From the IMG/VR virus record IMGVR_UViG_3300045988_174062: a stretch of DNA of 40,648 nucleotides. The stretch is one strand, 5' to 3'. Made by a program: the position numbers and the translations under genes. This stretch comes from a virus. Shown in pieces: positions 1 through 40,648 of the stretch. A model generated the notes under the pieces. That model made no database searches and was not told where the DNA came from. It saw only the letters and a list, made by a program, of their open reading frames with translations. Each line of letters opens with the position of its first letter. Position 1 is the first letter of the stretch.

Positions 1-119
1 CCTCCTTAAAATTTGAATATAAAAAAATCACTCTAAAAAATAAAAAGAGTGATTAAAATAATTTCATTTGTTTTATAGCATTAGTTTTATCTATCTTTTT
101 TAATAAGTCACTATGGTCA
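1..119. repeat. Terminal direct repeat, copy A (identical to 40530-40648)
   Basis: Read directly: cctccttaaaatttgaatat...aataagtcactatggtca occurs at both window ends. This implies a circular or terminally redundant genome with a unit of about 40,529 bp. Confidence 0.95.
19..54 (-). terminator. Rho-independent terminator (minus strand); second copy at 40548-40583
   Basis: Stem aatcactct (26-34) / agagtgatt (46-54). On the minus strand it is followed by a T-run (the plus-strand A-run at 20-27). It overlaps the stop of ORF 53..202. Confidence 0.5.
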
Positions 120-29356: not shown

Positions 29357-29670
29357 TGATAATACTATTTGAACCAATTCTATTATTATCTAAATAAAAT
29401 AATCATAAAGAGTATGCAATAAAAGATGATGAATAAAAACAATGTAAAAAAATAAAATTCGAAATTACTTCTTAGTAGAAAAAAGCACTTGGACAACAAA
29501 AGAGTAAGAGGAAATTATATAACATTCCTCTACTCTATTTTTTAAGTTAATAGTATAAAACATAGTACTATCAATATGTATATGATATAATAATAGAGGA
29601 ATTGAAATCTATAGAGTGGTGTTTCATTCAAGAACTTACCTACTTCTTTGCAGGAAGGAGGTGAGGAAGT

Positions 29671-29850
29671 ATGGAACAAAAGATAATTGTCGGTATTATA
29701 AGTGCTATTGGTGCAATATGTCTTGGTCTAATGACTAATTATATATCTGACAAATTAAAAAGCCACTCTATGCGAGAGAGTGGCTTAGAGATTAAAATTA
29801 AGTTAAAATTTTTTGAACTTAATTTTAAACTTAAAAATTCTAAAAAATAA
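29671..29850 (+). CDS. Type I toxin candidate 1 (59-aa membrane peptide with Lys-rich tail)
   Basis: My own translation: MEQKIIVGIISAIGAICLGLMTNYISDKLKSHSMRESGLEIKIKLKFFELNFKLKNSKK. A GGAAGGAGGTGAGG RBS is present. An extended -10 TGATATAAT lies at 29583-29591 and a downstream terminator at 29942-29974. Confidence 0.6.
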   Translation: MEQKIIVGIISAIGAICLGLMTNYISDKLKSHSMRESGLEIKIKLKFFELNFKLKNSKK

Positions 29851-29898
29851 TTTTTAGGAACATCACTCTACTGCTAAATAGATTTCAATTCCTTTTAT
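29752..29898 (-). ncRNA. Candidate antitoxin sRNA 1 (antisense to the 3' half of toxin 1 mRNA)
   Basis: A minus-strand extended -10 TGTTATAAT lies at 29913-29905. The hairpin agccactct/agagtggct (29761-29785) is followed on the minus strand by a T-run, so the terminator is embedded in the toxin ORF. The ends are approximate. Confidence 0.4.
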
Positions 29899-29941
29899 AT
29901 TTATATTATAACATAATCAAATATGTTTTAAACTAATTTTT

Positions 29942-29974
29942 GAGATATAGATTAATTTCTATATCTCTTTTTTT
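29942..29974 (+). terminator. Rho-independent terminator (toxin 1 mRNA)
   Basis: gagatatag(a) ... (t)ctatatctc followed by T7. Confidence 0.65.
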
Positions 29975-30134
29975 ACTATTTTGAATAAATTAAAATTATT
30001 ATTGATATATAAATTATTTCTTAGTAGAAAAAAGCACTTTGATAAAATAAGAATATGAAAAAATGATTAATAATAATGCAACAGTATATTAACTAAAATA
30101 AGTATAAAGTTAATATATTATTTATTTTTCAAAG

Positions 30135-30321
30135 TTAAAATTTTATAAAAAATTATAAAATTTTATAAAAATACGATTTGTATAAATTTTATAATTTTTT
30201 ACACTAATTTATAATTTTTTGCAAAATTTTATAAAAAATAATGAAATTAAATATTGCAAAATTTTATAAAATTTGGTAAAATTCAATTAAAGTTGAATAA
30301 GTTTTATAAAGTTTTGTAAAA
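30135..30321. repeat. Centromere-like array (parC candidate) of TTTTATAAAA palindromic decamers, overlapping the par promoter
   Basis: Perfect ttttataaaa at 30141, 30161, 30227 and 30262. There are at least 5 degenerate copies (30151, 30187, 30207, 30302, 30312). ttgcaaaattttataaaa is duplicated at 30219 and 30254. The promoter TTGCAA (30254-30259), N17, TAAAAT (30277-30282) lies inside the array. Confidence 0.6.
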
Positions 30322-30334
30322 GGAGGTGATAAAC

Positions 30335-30550
30335 TTGAGTAGGATTGTTTTAACTTTCAAAAATAACGATAAAGAAAAAGCAATAGAATCTTTTTTAGAT
30401 AGCAAAGTTTCTCCTACTGCTTATATAAAGGAGCTAGTATGGGAGGCTATGAATAACGGAACTATAACAATACCTGTTATATCAGAAGAGCAAAACCAAG
30501 AACAAGAATCCACTAAAAAAAGTAAACCTAAAGTTGGTGGATTTAGATAA
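30335..30550 (+). CDS. parR: ParR-like centromere-binding adaptor (ribbon-helix-helix-type N-terminus)
   Basis: I prefer the TTG at 30335 (AAGGAGG RBS 8 nt upstream). The track's GTG at 30326 sits inside the RBS. The product is about 71 aa: SRIVLTFKNNDKEKAIESFL... (beta strand then helices), with a basic tail. It lies directly upstream of parM. Confidence 0.5.
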   Translation: MSRIVLTFKNNDKEKAIESFLDSKVSPTAYIKELVWEAMNNGTITIPVISEEQNQEQESTKKSKPKVGGFR

Positions 30551-30593
30551 ATGTACATTTAAAATTTAATATTAGAACATTGGAGGAATGAGT

Positions 30594-31535
30594 ATGAAAT
30601 TTGTTAGCGCAGGAATAGACTTAGGAAATAGTATGCTAAAGGCTACTAAAGAATTAAATGGTAAAAAGGTTAATGTGAAAGTTCCAAATAGAGTTCAGTA
30701 TGAAAAATCAATTAACCCTAAAGCAAAAAAAGTTGAATTTAATGGACAAACAATATACATAGGAGTCGGAGAACTTAACAATAATGTTCAAAAACATTCA
30801 AGAAAACATCTGTTAGAGCAAACTTTTGTTATGTTACATGAATTATATCCAAATGAATCAGCTTTAAAAGTTGATTTGAGATTAGGTTTACCACCAGTTC
30901 AATATTTTAATGATGCTCATAAAAGTAATTTTGCAAATATGTTCCCTATAGGTAAGCAATTTGATTTTACTGTAAATGGAATAAATAAGAAGGTTACTTT
31001 TGTATCGTTAGAAATATTTGTAGAAGGATATTCTGCTTTTGTTTCAAATATAGAAAGCATTGGAGATAATAAACAAGATATACTTTCAATTGATGTAGGT
31101 GGAGGTACAACTGATATATGTAGCTTCTCATATGATTATGATGATGAAATGTATTATCCAAATGATACTTTAACTGTACCAAAAGGAGTTATAGATTACG
31201 GTATAGAGATAGCCAATCATTTTAATGAAGTTGAAAATGCAGATATATCAAGTAAATATATAGATAATTTACTTAAAAATAATATTGAAGTAATTGAATA
31301 TAAAGGTAATAAATATAATCTTGAAAATTATTTATCTTCAATAGAGCCAATAGTAAATGACACTACTAATAAGATAACTAATAAGTTCGGTGAACTTGAT
31401 AGATATATTGTAGTTGGAGTTGGTGGTGGTTATAAGACATATAACAGAATGATTAAAGATAGAATAGCAGCAGAGATAGAATTAGATGAATATGCTCAAT
31501 TTTTCGGCAATTCAGAAGGATATTTAGAGCAATAA
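30594..31535 (+). CDS. parM: ParM/StbA-family actin-like segregation ATPase
   Basis: GIDLGNSMLKA (phosphate-1) and LSIDVGGGTTDI (phosphate-2) are actin-fold motifs. About 313 aa. I prefer the ATG at 30594 on RBS spacing. Confidence 0.8.
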   Translation: MKFVSAGIDLGNSMLKATKELNGKKVNVKVPNRVQYEKSINPKAKKVEFNGQTIYIGVGELNNNVQKHSRKHLLEQTFVMLHELYPNESALKVDLRLGLPPVQYFNDAHKSNFANMFPIGKQFDFTVNGINKKVTFVSLEIFVEGYSAFVSNIESIGDNKQDILSIDVGGGTTDICSFSYDYDDEMYYPNDTLTVPKGVIDYGIEIANHFNEVENADISSKYIDNLLKNNIEVIEYKGNKYNLENYLSSIEPIVNDTTNKITNKFGELDRYIVVGVGGGYKTYNRMIKDRIAAEIELDEYAQFFGNSEGYLEQ

Positions 31536-33834: not shown

Positions 33835-33904
33835 GAAAATATATATTAAAATATAACTAAATATATACTGTTTATTTTTATATATTTTGTAGTATAATAT
33901 AAAT

Positions 33905-34036
33905 ATAAAAGGAACTTCAATCTATTTGCACTAGAGTGATGTTTCCAAAACTTTAATTTTTGGTAATTTTGAACTTGATTTTTATTTCAAGTTCCACGCC
34001 ACTCTTAGTTTTCCTAGAACTAGAGTGGCTTTTTAA
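33905..34036 (+). ncRNA. Candidate antitoxin sRNA 2
   Basis: Promoter ...ttttgtagTATAAT (33893-33898). The terminator gccactct (33998-34005) / agagtggc (34022-34029) plus T5 is embedded in the toxin 2 ORF. The ends are approximate. Confidence 0.4.
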
Positions 34037-34117
34037 TTTGTCGGATATGTAGTTAGTCAATAGACCAAGACATATTGTGCAAATAGCACCTATGACAATA
34101 TTTATCATTTGTTCCAT
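33953..34117 (-). CDS. Type I toxin candidate 2 (54 aa; paralog of toxin 1)
   Basis: My own translation: MEQMINIVIGAICTICLGLLTNYISDKLKSHSSSRKTKSGVELEIKIKFKITKN. A GGAAGGAGGTGAG RBS is present. The promoter TGATATAAT lies on the minus strand at 34207-34199. Confidence 0.6.
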   Translation of the reverse strand: MEQMINIVIGAICTICLGLLTNYISDKLKSHSSSRKTKSGVELEIKIKFKITKN

Positions 34118-34365
34118 ACTTCTCACCTCCTTCCGTTAAGAAGTAGGCTTTATATTTAGTATGGAAACACCACTCTATAAATTGAAATTCCTATATTTAT
34201 TATATCATATCCATATAAGTTTTTATATACTTCAATCATTTCTTTGTTTTTATTATATAAATAAAACAAAATTTCATAAATTAATAAATGAACAAAAAAC
34301 ATTAATAAATGTATATTTTGTTCATTTATTAATTTATGAACGAAATAAAATAATTAGAGCTATGC

Positions 34366-34495: not shown

Positions 34496-34524
34496 TTGAC
34501 TCACCGTAACGGTTATGTTATAAT
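34496..34524 (+). promoter_or_regulatory. Near-consensus sigma-A promoter
   Basis: TTGACT (34496-34501), N17 ending in TGT (extended -10), TATAAT (34519-34524). Confidence 0.65.
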
Positions 34525-34551
34525 ATAAATATAGAAAGGGAGGTGAAGAAA

Positions 34552-34671
34552 GTGGCAAATAGAAGAAAACAAAAGAAAAAAAAGAAGAACACAGAACTTG
34601 CGACGGCTCGAATTCTTCTTTTGATAGAAATACTTAGCATAGTAAATACTATACTAGATAAGTTTTTCTAA
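34552..34671 (+). CDS. Small protein (39 aa) with a poly-Lys N-terminus and a hydrophobic C-terminus
   Basis: GTG start with an AGGGAGGTG RBS. Product: VANRRKQKKKKKNTELATARILLLIEILSIVNTILDKFF. The hairpin at 34671-34698 follows. Confidence 0.35.
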   Translation: MANRRKQKKKKKNTELATARILLLIEILSIVNTILDKFF

Positions 34672-34998: not shown

Positions 34999-35081
34999 TA
35001 TAAATATATTATAATAATATGAAAAAAATACATTAAAATATATACTGTGTATTTTTCTGCATTTTGTAGTATAATAAAAAC

Positions 35082-35192
35082 ATAGAAATAAAAAAGAGAA
35101 ATTATAATCTAGTGGAATAGAGTGTGATTTCTATAAATACATGTTTTTATTTATTAGAATCACTCTTATTGCCAGTAAGAGTGATTTTTAAT
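35082..35192 (+). ncRNA. Candidate antitoxin sRNA 3
   Basis: The promoter ...ttttgtagTATAAT (35070-35075) is homologous to the sRNA 2 promoter region. The terminator is aatcactctta (35158-35168) / taagagtgatt (35176-35186) plus T-run. It overlaps the 3' end of toxin 3. Confidence 0.4.
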
Positions 35193-35269
35193 TTATCATA
35201 AATAAATGCTCCGATGATGCTAATGATTATAGCATCAGAGTTATTTAATAATAACTTTAAAATTTCCAT
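35147..35269 (-). CDS. Type I toxin candidate 3 (40 aa)
   Basis: I prefer the ATG at 35269 (AAAGGAGGTG RBS). Product: MEILKLLLNNSDAIIISIIGAFIYDKLKITLTGNKSDSNK. The promoter TGTTATAAT lies on the minus strand at 35374-35366. Confidence 0.5.
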   Translation of the reverse strand: MEILKLLLNNSDAIIISIIGAFIYDKLKITLTGNKSDSNK

Positions 35270-35501
35270 ACTTACACCTCCTTTCTTTCGTGAAAGTAGG
35301 TGTTTTTTCTTTTGTATAGAAATCATCACTCTTAGATTATAATTTCTCTAAAAATATTATAACATAAAACCATTTACTAAAATAAAATAAATTGTTAACA
35401 GTTTTACTAAACACTTTATTTTCATAAATTAATTATTGAATAAAAATAAATATAAATGATATAATATTTTCATAAGTTAATTTATGAAAATAGGTGATGA
35501 A

Positions 35502-36873: not shown

Positions 36874-37818
36874 CTAAGAATGAACTCTTCTATAGAAATT
36901 CATTCCTATTTTAATACTTTCTTGATCTTTAGGGTCATCTCCATAAGGATAAGATCCATTCCATTTACCCCACTCAGGCTTATTTGTACCGGCTTGTGCT
37001 TGAGCATATCCAGCAGCCCTTTGTAGTAATTCATCTGTATATTTAAAACATTTACCAACATATCCATAAAGTATGTTGCCTGGAGAATCTCCTCTTACAA
37101 CTTTATTATCAAATATATAATTTGTTTTACTACTCCATCCTTGATTTTTTAAATCTAATTCTCCATTATTTCTAACTAAATTATAAAATACATATAATTG
37201 AGCCGGAGTAGAAAGTTTACTATATTGTTCTTTATATTTATGTTCATATTTTACAAAAAGAGATAATAATTTATCTGTAATATTTTTTAAATTTGATCCT
37301 TCTATAAGTTTTTTCCAAGTAGCAGGTCCTACCATTCCATCTACAGTTAATCCAGATGCTTGTTGGAATTTTTTTACTTCTCTTTGTGTAGCAGGACCAA
37401 AATATCCATCTGCAGAGTCTAAACTATACCAAAGAGATATAAGTTTCTTTTGAACAGATTTAACGTCTTCACCATACATTTGTGGACTTGTTAATTTTAG
37501 TACTCTTGTATATCCAGCTCCTGAACTAGAAGGTTTAGGTTTAGCAGTTGAGCTAAATAATTTATTCCAAGTAGCAGGACCAACTGATCCATCTACTGCT
37601 AAACCATTAACTCCTTGGAAATCTTTAACTGCAGCGACTCCTGTTGGACCATAGTATCCATCTACTGTTCCTGCACTATACTTTAATTCGTTTAATCTTC
37701 TTTGAACAGCTTTGACATCCTCACCATACATTTGTGGACTTGTTAATTTTAGTACTCTTGTATAAGATACACGAGCCTCGATATCAGTCTTTTCTAATAT
37801 TAATTCTTTTTCTTTCAT
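36874..37818 (-). CDS. Signal-less protein with two PG_binding_1-type repeats and an uncharacterised C-terminal effector-like domain
   Basis: 314 aa. YTRVLKLTSPQMYGEDVK...VDGY(Y/F)GP...V..FQ...GL.VDG.VGPATW.KL is repeated twice (peptidoglycan-binding domain 1 signature). The C-terminal ~135 aa carry GNILYGYVG and YPYGDDPKDQESIKIG. From memory these resemble a polymorphic-toxin C-terminal module (Ntox44-like); this is unverified. There is no N-terminal signal peptide. Confidence 0.6.
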   Translation of the reverse strand: MKEKELILEKTDIEARVSYTRVLKLTSPQMYGEDVKAVQRRLNELKYSAGTVDGYYGPTGVAAVKDFQGVNGLAVDGSVGPATWNKLFSSTAKPKPSSSGAGYTRVLKLTSPQMYGEDVKSVQKKLISLWYSLDSADGYFGPATQREVKKFQQASGLTVDGMVGPATWKKLIEGSNLKNITDKLLSLFVKYEHKYKEQYSKLSTPAQLYVFYNLVRNNGELDLKNQGWSSKTNYIFDNKVVRGDSPGNILYGYVGKCFKYTDELLQRAAGYAQAQAGTNKPEWGKWNGSYPYGDDPKDQESIKIGMNFYRRVHS

Positions 37819-40529: not shown

Positions 40530-40648
40530 CCTCCTTAAAATTTGAATATAAAAAAATCACTCTAAAAAATAAAAAGAGTGATTAAAATAATTTCATTTGT
40601 TTTATAGCATTAGTTTTATCTATCTTTTTTAATAAGTCACTATGGTCA
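40530..40648. repeat. Terminal direct repeat, copy B (identical to 1-119)
   Basis: Same 119-nt string as 1-119. It contains the AGGAGG RBS of the ORF starting at 40523 and the 3' part of the 53..202 ORF. Confidence 0.95.

What the first reader, a model, noticed from the sequence alone, without database searches (positions are those of the whole stretch)
29583..29974. Type I toxin-antitoxin-like cassette 1, with a 5'/3' fold-back repeat and an antitoxin terminator embedded in the toxin ORF
**Toxin.** A 59-aa ORF missed by the ORF track (29671-29850) encodes an N-terminal transmembrane helix (IIVGIISAIGAICLGLM) and a Lys-rich tail. It has a very strong RBS and an extended -10 (TGATATAAT, 29583-29591).

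**Antisense RNA.** A convergent extended -10 (TGTTATAAT) lies on the minus strand at 29913-29905. It would drive an antisense RNA of about 150 nt. That RNA's intrinsic terminator (agccactct/agagtggct, 29761-29785, plus a T-run on the minus strand) sits inside the toxin coding sequence.

**Fold-back repeat.**
- The two transcription units begin with the same sequence. A perfect 16-bp inverted repeat, aggaattgaaatctat (29597-29612) / atagatttcaattcct (29878-29893), extends imperfectly to about 29 bp.
- The toxin mRNA's 5' end can therefore pair with its own 3' region. Such a long-range fold-back is known to keep hok-, AapA1- and similar type I toxin mRNAs translationally inert.
- The AGAGTGG/CCACTCT elements recur in the 5' UTR, the ORF and the 3' UTR, which offers alternative pairings.

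Type I TA modules with similar small Lys-tailed peptides are known in Clostridioides prophages, where they stabilise the element. That would suit a plasmid-like prophage.
Basis: partly seen in the sequence, partly recalled or inferred. Interest (0 to 1): 0.8.

Follow-up and report, generated by a model that had tools for sequence, protein, structure and literature searches.

The report
Type I toxin-antitoxin cassette on phage-plasmid
This roughly 400-bp stretch is very probably a small "addiction" module, a membrane-toxin gene silenced by an overlapping antisense RNA, that is distantly related to modules already characterised in Clostridioides difficile and sits beside the partition genes of a gut phage that replicates as a plasmid.

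Summary
Comparison with about 40 related loci supports the type I toxin-antitoxin reading.

- **Coding:** the 59-aa ORF is under purifying selection (dN/dS about 0.19 over the membrane-helix codons).
- **Conserved signals:** both extended -10 promoters, the minus-strand terminator inside the ORF and the plus-strand terminator after it.
- **Fold-back:** the 5'/3' helix is longer than reported, 26 bp in two segments around an 8-nt bulge. It is 98% paired across 22 distinct cassettes, with 5 compensatory pairs. Mismatches are G·U only in the toxin-mRNA sense (43 G·U versus 1 A·C).
- **Family:** the peptide is a sub-threshold relative of NCBIfam NF047374, the C. difficile type I toxin. C. difficile phage loci share the same RNA architecture, fold-back included.
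- **Copies and spread:** the window holds three such cassettes. The same module occurs on plasmids of C. difficile, Paraclostridium and Terrisporobacter.

in silico, the ribosome-binding site is hidden by a local anti-SD hairpin. The fold-back does not do this.

**Verdict:** a new, diverged member of a known kind. No transcript or toxicity data exist for it.

The parts
29583..29591 (+). Toxin promoter, extended -10 TGATATAAT. Predicted TSS at about 29597.
   Evidence: Read directly from the sequence. TGnTATAAT is invariant in 22 aligned cassettes. The TSS is inferred.
29597..29622 (+). 5' arm of the fold-back: outer segment AGGAATTGAAATCTAT (29597-29612) and inner segment AGAGTGGTGT (29613-29622).
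   Evidence: Present in the MFE and centroid folds, z = -8.9. Helices are 98.4% and 98.8% paired, with 5 pairs showing double changes. G·U 43 versus A·C 1.
29623..29627 (+). Leader bases UUCAU, predicted to pair with the start codon region AUGGA (29671-29675).
   Evidence: The pairing is longer in cassette 2 (UUUCCAUAC/GUAUGGAA).
29635..29665 (+). Local anti-SD/SD hairpin: CUUACCUACUUCU pairs with AGGAAGGAGGUGAG. GGAGG lies at 29657-29661.
   Evidence: CCTACTTC and GGAAGGAGG are invariant or nearly so. P(unpaired SD) is about 0.27 in the full-length RNA and in every truncation.
29671..29850 (+). Toxin ORF, 59 aa: N-terminal hydrophobic helix and a Lys-rich tail.
   Evidence: dN/dS is 0.19 over codons 10-27 and all indels are in frame. 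NF047374 E = 1.2e-3. AF2 predicts a single helix, pLDDT 79. The exact peptide is listed in 1021 blocks of the assembly collection.
29750..29786 (-). Intrinsic terminator of the antisense RNA, inside the toxin codons DKLKSHSMRESGL: hairpin at 29786->29760, T-run at 29759->29750.
   Evidence: The stem is 94% paired, with a compensatory G-C to A-U change in 5 sequences. The two single changes (L013, L019) are U·G on the minus-strand RNA but C·A on the plus strand. No T-run follows on the plus strand.
29788..29833 (.). A/U-rich hairpin within the Lys-tail codons. It forms in both the toxin mRNA and the antisense RNA and is a candidate kissing site.
   Evidence: Helix 12 is 87% paired with 3 covarying pairs. 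The kissing role is inferred.
29860..29893 (+). 3' arm of the fold-back: inner ACATCACTCT (29860-29869), bulge (29870-29877), outer ATAGATTTCAATTCCT (29878-29893).
29905..29932 (-). Antisense (antitoxin) promoter: -35-like TTTAAA (29932->29927), 16-nt spacer, extended -10 TGTTATAAT (29913->29905).
   Evidence: TATAAT is invariant in 22 cassettes and the TG is present in most.
29752..29898 (-). Predicted antitoxin RNA of about 147 nt, fully complementary to the toxin mRNA from codon 28 through the 3' arm.
   Evidence: Ends are inferred from the promoter and terminator. It folds into three hairpins, z = -4.05. The length matches the 131-134-nt overlaps and the 134-140-nt short RCd8/9/10 transcripts reported in PMC5961336.
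29942..29974 (+). Intrinsic terminator of the toxin mRNA: GAGATATAGA/TCTATATCTC plus T7.
   Evidence: 85% paired with 4 covarying pairs.

Best explanation
Cassette 1 is a type I toxin-antitoxin module of the same superfamily as the C. difficile CD2517.1/RCd8 and CD0956.2/RCd10 modules. It is carried by a circular 40.5-kb siphovirus-like phage-plasmid, immediately upstream of the ParR/ParM partition locus.

**Shown by sequence and comparison**
- A sigma-A-type extended -10 promoter would drive a roughly 378-nt mRNA (about 29597-29975). It encodes a 59-aa single-helix membrane peptide.
- The mRNA's first 26 nt pair with nt 29860-29893, forming a closed fold-back.
- A local anti-SD hairpin and a leader/AUG pairing bury the translation start.
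- A convergent extended -10 promoter would drive a roughly 147-nt antisense RNA. It ends at a terminator embedded in toxin codons 27-39, and it is perfectly complementary to the 3' half of the mRNA, including the 3' arm of the fold-back.

**Inferred by homology with the C. difficile systems**
- The unstable antisense RNA anneals through loop-loop contacts at the mirrored hairpins, and the extended duplex is then degraded by RNase III, J or Y.
- The stable, closed toxin mRNA outlasts the antitoxin in cells that lose the element. After an unknown activating step it is translated, and the peptide damages the membrane, so the phage-plasmid is maintained.
- The fold-back most plausibly protects the 5' end and locks the inert conformation.
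- The 3' arm can pair either with the mRNA's own 5' end or with the antitoxin's 5' end, so the two compete for it.
For: **Anatomy:**

**Folds:** toxin mRNA z = -8.9 (cassette 1), -9.3 (cassette 2) and -8.7 (cassette 3). All three show the same fold-back, SD hairpin and ORF hairpin.

**Covariation over 22 distinct cassettes:**
- Fold-back 98% paired, with 5 pairs changed on both sides.
- Covariation score 0.122 against 0.076 in shuffles (0 of 500 reach it) and at most 0.043 when the partner is slid.
- 43 G·U against 1 A·C in the fold-back.
- Terminator-stem changes are compensatory, or are wobble pairs only on the minus-strand RNA.

**Coding:** dN/dS 0.19. Synonymous sites are frozen where the antisense terminator overlaps the ORF.

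**Homology:**
- NF047374 is hit by 17 of 18 family members, best E = 7e-7.
- 289 relatives were found; one Romboutsia protein is named a type I TA toxin by NCBI.
- C. difficile phage loci phiCD146 and LIBA2945 have the same layout with different arm sequences.

**Published dimensions of the C. difficile modules**, and plasmid stabilisation by them: PMC5961336 and PMC7699646.

**Context:**
- The exact peptide is always directly upstream of an ALP_N ParM gene, on contigs that mostly fall in the 20-50-kb class, about 37-60 kb in the six places shown.
- Relatives occur on C. difficile, P. sordellii, P. bifermentans and T. petrolearius plasmids.
Against: - No RNA-seq, Northern, toxicity or stability data exist for this cassette or its close relatives.
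- Both TSSs and both 3' ends are predictions.
- The peptide scores 19 bits against NF047374, whose cut-off is 60 bits, so formal family membership fails.
- The scan tool did not report the toxin promoter, because no -35 hexamer passes its filter. The promoter rests on the extended -10 alone.
- In silico, the fold-back is not needed for SD sequestration, so its role is unproven.
- The activation step is unknown.
- Many of the 22 sequences are closely related, so covarying cells are not independent events.
Confidence: 0.85

Rival explanations
1. It is a type I TA module of the same build, but its main role is defence (abortive infection or exclusion of competing phages and plasmids), not maintenance of the phage-plasmid.
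For: - Three diverged cassettes sit in one 40-kb element, which is more than addiction would seem to need.
- The antitoxin-overlap region is the most diverged part between cassettes 1 and 2: 61% against 80% identity.
- The C. difficile relatives sit next to CRISPR arrays and respond to stress (PMC5961336).
Against: - The cassette is tightly and consistently linked to the ParM partition locus, and it occurs on plasmids.
- Homologous C. difficile modules raise plasmid retention from 1% to 22-64% (PMC7699646).
- The two roles are not mutually exclusive.
Confidence: 0.1
2. The inverted repeat is a DNA-level element, such as two copies of an operator placed just downstream of the two convergent promoters, or a remnant of a promoter duplication. 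On this view it is not an RNA fold-back.
For: - Both predicted transcripts begin with nearly the same sequence, (A)AGGAATTGAAATCTAT.
- The arms lie at similar distances from the two -10 boxes.
Against: - The arms covary; they are not simply conserved.
- Mismatches are almost all G·U in the plus sense, 43 against 1 A·C. Symmetric DNA sites would not favour one sense.
- Cassette 3 and the C. difficile phage loci keep the pairing with unrelated arm sequences.
- The helix continues across a bulge into the AGAGTGGTGT/ACATCACTCT segment.
Confidence: 0.04
3. The ORF is a small membrane protein with another job, such as a holin-like or regulatory peptide, and the antisense RNA merely tunes it. There would be no toxin-antitoxin logic.
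For: Toxicity is untested. Small single-helix peptides with basic tails have many roles. AF2 shows only a generic helix.
Against: - Sequence and RNA-architecture homology to experimentally toxic C. difficile peptides (PMC5961336).
- It is not next to the endolysin at 36874-37818.
- The module is a discrete roughly 400-bp unit that moves between contexts.
Confidence: 0.04

Closest known systems
C. difficile type I TA modules: CD2517.1/RCd8, CD2907.1/RCd9, CD0956.2/RCd10, CD0977.1/RCd11 and the 34-35-aa CD0956.3/CD0904.1 type (NCBIfam NF047374; Maikova 2018 PMC5961336; Peltier 2020 PMC7699646)
   Same: - Convergent toxin mRNA and antisense RNA overlapping at the 3' end by about 130-150 nt.
- A 5' UTR of about 75-88 nt with the SD sequestered.
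- A toxin under 60 aa with an N-terminal membrane helix and a Lys-rich tail.
- Shared motifs: IYDK[IL]K[NS]HS...KSG in the peptide, and AAGAGTGG / CCACTC in the RNA.
- Location on phages and plasmids of Peptostreptococcaceae.
- Detectable sequence homology (E = 1e-3 to 7e-7).
   Different: - It scores 19-30 bits, below the 60-bit family cut-off.
- At 59 aa it is longer, with an FFELNFKLKNSKK tail extension.
- The host is probably Romboutsia- or Terrisporobacter-like, not C. difficile.
- It is linked to a ParM partition locus, not to CRISPR arrays.
- I found no mention of a 5'/3' fold-back in the C. difficile papers I could read.
hok/Sok (plasmid R1) and AapA1/IsoA1 (Helicobacter pylori)
   Same: The full-length toxin mRNA is closed by a long-range 5'-3' pairing and is translationally inert. 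It acts as an addiction module on a mobile element.
   Different: - No sequence homology.
- In those systems the antitoxin targets the 5' region and the fold-back or anti-SD pairing itself controls translation, with activation by 3' processing (from my own knowledge of those systems).
- Here the antitoxin covers the 3' half, and in silico the SD is hidden by a local hairpin that does not depend on the fold-back.
Bacillus subtilis bsrG/SR4 and txpA/RatA
   Same: Gram-positive, prophage-borne modules with convergent 3'-overlapping RNAs. Duplex degradation involves RNase III, and the SD lies in a local structure (as summarised in PMC6563280).
   Different: No sequence homology. The toxin families differ. 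In the papers read here, no conserved 5'/3' clamp comparable to this one was noted.

Membership tests
Type I toxin-antitoxin system (generic) | Small (<60 aa) hydrophobic toxin ORF with a membrane helix and a charged C-terminus, genuinely coding | tested here: met
   59 aa. dN/dS is 0.19 over the helix codons, indels are in frame, and the RBS and ATG are invariant. AF2 predicts a single helix.
Type I toxin-antitoxin system (generic) | Cis-encoded antisense RNA overlapping the toxin mRNA | tested here: inconclusive
   The promoter and intrinsic terminator are predicted, conserved, and covary in the minus-strand sense. No transcript data are available.
Type I toxin-antitoxin system (generic) | Toxin expression arrests growth and the antisense RNA neutralises it | not testable with these tools
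   This needs induction experiments.
C. difficile type I toxin family (NCBIfam NF047374 CD_typeI_toxin) | Score at or above the curated cut-off of 60 bits | tested here: not met
   Cassette 1 scores 19.2 bits (E = 1.2e-3) and cassette 2 scores 29.5 bits (E = 7e-7). The phiCD146 phage peptide itself reaches only 48 bits.
C. difficile type I toxin family (NCBIfam NF047374 CD_typeI_toxin) | Homology through intermediates | tested here: met
   17 of 18 family members hit the model. The profile search found 289 relatives, including intermediates scoring 34-44 bits and one that NCBI names a type I TA toxin. The alignment shows the shared IYDK[IL]K[NS]HS..KSG motif.
C. difficile RCd-type TA locus architecture | Convergent transcripts with about 130-nt 3' overlap, antitoxin of about 125-150 nt, 5' UTR of about 85 nt, SD sequestered | tested here: met
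   Predicted values are 147-nt overlap and antitoxin, 74-nt 5' UTR and an SD hairpin. Published values are in PMC5961336. The same layout is seen in C. difficile phage loci L039 and L040.
hok/Sok or AapA1/IsoA1 | Sequence homology of toxin or RNAs; antitoxin acting on the 5' translation-initiation region | tested here: not met
   No Pfam, NCBIfam or Rfam hit to these families. The antisense RNA overlaps the 3' half, not the 5' UTR. Only the fold-back principle is shared.

The most novel reading that the evidence does not exclude
The conserved 5'/3' clamp may be a regulatory device particular to this clostridial superfamily. The toxin mRNA's 5' end is a near copy of the antitoxin's 5' end, and both compete for the same 3' arm. 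Antitoxin binding would then open the clamp and expose the mRNA 5' end to decay, while loss of the antitoxin would leave a closed, long-lived mRNA. In addition, much of the peptide's conserved C-terminal sequence (KSHS..SG, ELEIKIKF) would be dictated by antitoxin RNA hairpins, not by protein function. I found neither point in the C. difficile papers I could read.
Probability: 0.3. Interest if true: 0.5.

Novelty: new member of a known kind. Interest (0 to 1): 0.35.

Why it matters
- **Reach of the family.** It extends the experimentally defined C. difficile type I TA family to a widespread group of gut phage-plasmids and to plasmids of Romboutsia, Terrisporobacter and Paraclostridium. The exact peptide is listed in 1021 blocks of the assembly collection. 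These small genes are annotated as hypothetical or not annotated at all.
- **A testable RNA model.** Comparison gives a covariation-supported secondary-structure model: a 5'/3' clamp, an anti-SD hairpin, and an antitoxin terminator embedded in the coding sequence. This model could guide mechanistic work on the C. difficile systems, including the CD2517.1-based counter-selection tool.
- **Constraint on the peptide.** Part of the toxin's conserved sequence is probably constrained by the antisense RNA's structure.
- **Limit.** It does not reveal a new kind of system.

Tried and rejected
- **Nucleotide searches.** Megablast of the cassette against phage and plasmid collections found nothing. tblastn of the peptide against phages also found nothing.
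- **Rfam.** No hit at gathering thresholds across the window. At permissive E-values only far-sub-threshold sRNA, miRNA and snoRNA look-alikes appeared, which I judged to be chance.
- **Pfam.** The only hit was DUF5362 at E = 0.009, below its cut-off; I disregarded it.
- **Wasted searches.** A single-sequence search with P0036 returned only itself.
- **Peltier 2020 Supplementary Fig. 16** (plasmid homologues) is not held as text. I could not check whether p_TW11 and pCS1 are the plasmids they noted.
- **Fold-back and the SD.** I tested whether removing either arm, or blocking the antitoxin target, frees the SD. It does not in silico, so I rejected the idea that the fold-back itself hides the RBS.
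- **Plus-strand terminator reading.** I considered the ORF hairpin as a plus-strand attenuator or terminator and rejected it. No T-run follows on the plus strand, and the single-base stem changes are wobble pairs only on the minus-strand RNA.

Full report
**1. Observation**

The region reads as the first-stage reader described.
- TGATATAAT lies at 29583-29591.
- GGAGG at 29657-29661 sits 9 nt before an ATG at 29671, which opens a 59-aa ORF ending at 29850.
- The peptide has a hydrophobic N-terminal half and a Lys-rich tail.
- The consensus scan independently reports a minus-strand promoter: TTTAAA, 16 nt, TATAAT with an upstream TG (29932->29905).
- It also reports two intrinsic-terminator-like sites, against 0.0 expected in shuffles. 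One is on the minus strand inside the ORF (29786->29760, 10 bp, then TTTAATTT). The other is on the plus strand after the ORF (29942-29967, then T7).
- The perfect 16-nt inverted repeat at 29597-29612 / 29878-29893 is real. It is longer than any repeat in 200 dinucleotide-preserving shuffles, where the mode is 9 nt and the maximum 15 nt.

**2. Structure of the predicted RNAs**

*Toxin mRNA.* Folding 29597-29975 gives -114.4 kcal/mol, z = -8.9. The MFE and centroid folds contain:
- the 16-bp outer helix;
- its continuation AGAGUGGUGU/ACAUCACUCU (29613-29622 / 29860-29869) across an 8-nt bulge, making a 26-bp 5'/3' clamp;
- leader bases 29623-29627 paired with AUGGA of the start codon;
- a local hairpin in which CUUACCUACUUCU pairs with AGGAAGGAGGUGAG, burying the SD;
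- the ORF hairpin, an A/U-rich hairpin in the tail codons, and the terminator.

*Antisense RNA.* The predicted RNA (29898->29750) folds into three hairpins ending in the terminator, z = -4.05.

*What the fold-back does not do.* Removing the 3' arm, removing the 5' arm, or blocking the antitoxin target all leave the SD hairpin intact. P(unpaired) stays near 0.27 in every case. The fold-back is therefore not what hides the RBS in silico.

**3. Paralogues in the window**

Self-comparison and an nhmmer profile find two more cassettes of the same build on the minus strand.
- *Cassette 2* (about 34216->33890) encodes MEQMINIVIGAICTICLGLLTNYISDKLKSHSSSRKTKSGVELEIKIKFKITKN.
- *Cassette 3* (about 35364->35060) encodes MEILKLLLNNSDAIIISIIGAFIYDKLKITLTGNKSDSNK.

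Their mRNAs fold the same way, with z = -9.3 and -8.7. Cassette 3 uses unrelated arm sequences (AGAGAAAUUAUAAUCUA/UAGAUUAUAAUUUCUCU).

Cassettes 1 and 2 are 80% identical upstream of the antisense overlap. Within the overlap they are 61% identical, and only 43% in its central part. This fits non-cross-reacting antitoxins, which is an inference.

**4. Relatives elsewhere**

- The peptide has 28 close clusters in Romboutsia, Terrisporobacter muris, a Clostridium sp. MAG and gut metagenomes, all annotated as hypothetical.
- I fetched 35 loci from genomes, IMG/VR and metagenomes.
- Plasmid copies occur in C. difficile p_TW11, P. sordellii pCS1 plasmids, P. bifermentans and T. petrolearius pTPHSE1.
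- The homology shared by all these loci is a discrete block, about 29575-29990. The module is thus a roughly 400-bp unit found in different contexts.
- The exact 59-aa peptide is listed in 1021 blocks of the assembly collection. Its contigs mostly fall in the 20-50-kb class (about 37-60 kb in the six places shown), and the gene always lies directly upstream of an ALP_N (ParM-like) gene. The upstream neighbours vary.

**5. Comparative tests on 22 distinct cassettes (alignment A2)**

*Invariant elements:* both TATAAT boxes, the leader ATAGAGTGGTGTTTCC, CCTACTTC, and GGAAGGAGGTGA-N-GTATGGAAC.

*Counting the cassette 1 MFE pairs:*
- The fold-back helices are 98.4% and 98.8% paired.
- Five pairs are changed on both sides. 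For example, columns 47/374 read UA 10, GC 8, AU 2, and columns 48/373 read AU 11, CG 8.
- The whole-structure covariation score is 0.122. Column shuffles give 0.076 (0 of 500 reach the observed value), and slid partners give at most 0.043.

*Strand sense of the mismatches:* in the fold-back, 521 cells are Watson-Crick, 43 are G·U in the plus sense, and 1 is A·C. This argues for pairing in the toxin mRNA. It argues against a symmetric DNA site.

*The ORF hairpin:*
- It is 94% paired.
- Five sequences carry a compensatory G-C to A-U change.
- The two single changes (L013, L019) are C·A on the plus strand but U·G on the minus strand. That is the pattern expected if the hairpin serves the antisense RNA.

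*The toxin terminator* covaries at 4 pairs.

*Caveat:* many of these sequences are close relatives, so the cell counts overstate the number of independent events.

**6. Coding status**

- Over helix codons 10-27, mean dN is 0.126 and mean dS is 0.661, a ratio of 0.19.
- All indels are in frame.
- Codons 28-33 (DKLKSH), which encode the antisense T-run and the 5' half of its stem, show no synonymous variation across the 22 sequences. This is consistent with a second, RNA-level constraint.
- The conserved peptide motifs K[SN]HS...SG and ELEIKIKF are translations of the two hairpin stems.
- AlphaFold2 predicts a single helix, pLDDT 79. This is consistent with a membrane peptide but generic.

**7. 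Relation to known systems**

*Protein homology.*
- NCBIfam NF047374 (CD_typeI_toxin) is the only meaningful family hit. Cassette 1 gives E = 1.2e-3 (19 bits) and cassette 2 gives 7e-7 (29.5 bits). 17 of 18 family members hit the model, all below the 60-bit cut-off.
- A profile search finds 289 relatives, with intermediates at 34-44 bits. One Romboutsia protein is named 'type I toxin-antitoxin system toxin' by NCBI.

*RNA architecture in C. difficile phages.* The phiCD146 and LIBA2945 loci carry short toxins (35 and 38 aa; the phiCD146 peptide scores 48 bits against the model) with the same layout:
- an extended -10 promoter;
- a leader containing AAGAGTGG;
- an anti-SD element;
- an AACCACTC/GAGTGGTT hairpin preceded by an A-run;
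- a 3' arm followed by a convergent TGnTATAAT;
- an MFE 5'/3' fold-back built from different sequences.

*Published data on the C. difficile modules* (PMC5961336, PMC7699646, PMC6563280):
- mRNAs of about 300 nt with 5' UTRs of 83-88 nt;
- short antitoxin transcripts of 134-140 nt, with overlaps of 131-134 nt;
- toxins of 50-53 aa;
- sequestered RBS (reported as data not shown);
- kissing followed by full duplex formation, and RNase III cleavage in vitro;
- plasmid retention raised from 1% to 22-64%;
- homologues noted on C. difficile and P. sordellii plasmids.

*What I did not find.* The terms 'long-range' and 'long-distance' do not occur in the 2018 paper, and 'secondary structure' does not occur in the 2020 paper. 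I therefore found no prior description of the fold-back for this family. 5'-3' long-distance interactions are, however, a recognised general feature of type I toxin mRNAs (T1TAdb, PMC8594479).

**8. Context**

- The window is a circularly assembled genome with a 40,529-bp unit and an exact 119-nt terminal overlap.
- It encodes terminase, portal, major head, tape-measure and endolysin proteins, a replication initiator, and a ParR/ParM partition locus. None of the 16 larger ORFs I scanned was called an integrase (one weak sub-hit inside the endolysin). It is thus a phage-plasmid.
- Cassette 1 lies between roughly 57-nt direct repeats. A relative (L003) has a single repeat copy directly abutting the par site, that is, an empty site.

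**9. Verdict**

The finding is real and the type I TA interpretation is well supported in silico. It is a diverged new member of the C. difficile-type family, not a new kind of system.

The added value is the covariation-backed RNA model, the evidence that the antisense terminator constrains the coding sequence, and the breadth of distribution.

Expression, toxicity, the activation step, and the functional role of the clamp all remain untested.

Noticed in passing
window 33890-34216 (minus strand): Cassette 2 is a paralogue of the finding. It has the same TGATATAAT promoter, a 54-aa peptide (ATG at 34117), the same hairpin stem with a longer loop, and compensatory changes in the fold-back arms. 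Its antisense -10 is TAGTATAAT, with no TG, and it lacks the conserved plus-sense terminator.
   Followed up: partly
window 35060-35364 (minus strand): Cassette 3 has the same architecture with unrelated arm sequences. It encodes a 40-aa peptide, MEILKLLLNNSDAIIISIIGAFIYDKLKITLTGNKSDSNK (ATG at 35269). nhmmer gives E = 3e-14 against the cassette profile, the mRNA folds with z = -8.7, and the peptide has no NCBIfam hit.
   Followed up: partly
window 34513-34671: A copy of the antitoxin-type promoter (plus strand TGTTATAAT; 21 nt identical to 29896-29916) here precedes an RBS and a 42-aa plus-strand ORF at 34543-34671, MKKVANRRKQKKKKKNTELATARILLLIEILSIVNTILDKFF. The peptide has a basic N-terminus and a hydrophobic C-terminus.
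   Followed up: no
window 29462-29518 and 30011-30067; L003 5850-6010: Cassette 1 is flanked by roughly 57-nt direct repeats (82% identical; the core 29 nt are 97% identical). The upstream copy keeps a terminator hairpin, while the downstream copy has decayed. Relative L003 has one copy directly abutting the par site. This looks like an empty site, so the cassette may have been inserted there.
   Followed up: partly
window 30112-31535: Partition locus just downstream of cassette 1. It consists of an array of AAAATTTTATAAAA-type direct and inverted repeats (30112-30321, parC-like), a 74-aa ORF (phrog_4223, ParR-like by position), and a ParM/Alp actin-like ATPase (ALP_N; phrog_691 'partition protein').
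   Followed up: partly
window 1-119 and 40530-40648: An exact 119-nt terminal overlap shows that the window is a circular assembly with a 40,529-bp unit. It carries phage structural genes, a replication initiator and a par locus. None of the 16 larger ORFs scanned was called an integrase, so it is a phage-plasmid.
   Followed up: partly
window 29752-29833 (and alignments A2, A4): The conserved peptide motifs K[SN]HS..SG and ELEIKIKF are encoded by the stems of the antisense terminator and of the A/U-rich hairpin. Synonymous sites are frozen there. Part of the apparent protein conservation is therefore probably an RNA constraint.
   Followed up: partly
L039 (phage phiCD146) 740-890: Downstream of the complete C. 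difficile phage cassette lies an orphan 3' half: hairpin, tail hairpin, 3' arm and antisense promoter, with no toxin 5' part. It may be a stand-alone antitoxin gene or a decayed copy.
   Followed up: no
L010 368-807: This is a natural recombinant, with the cassette 2-type 5' half joined to the cassette 1-type 3' half. Its fold-back arms no longer match at the two covarying positions.
   Followed up: no
L041 2261-3752: In one relative, an IS605-type TnpA (Y1_Tnp) and TnpB (OrfB_IS605) pair sits directly upstream of the identical cassette.
   Followed up: no
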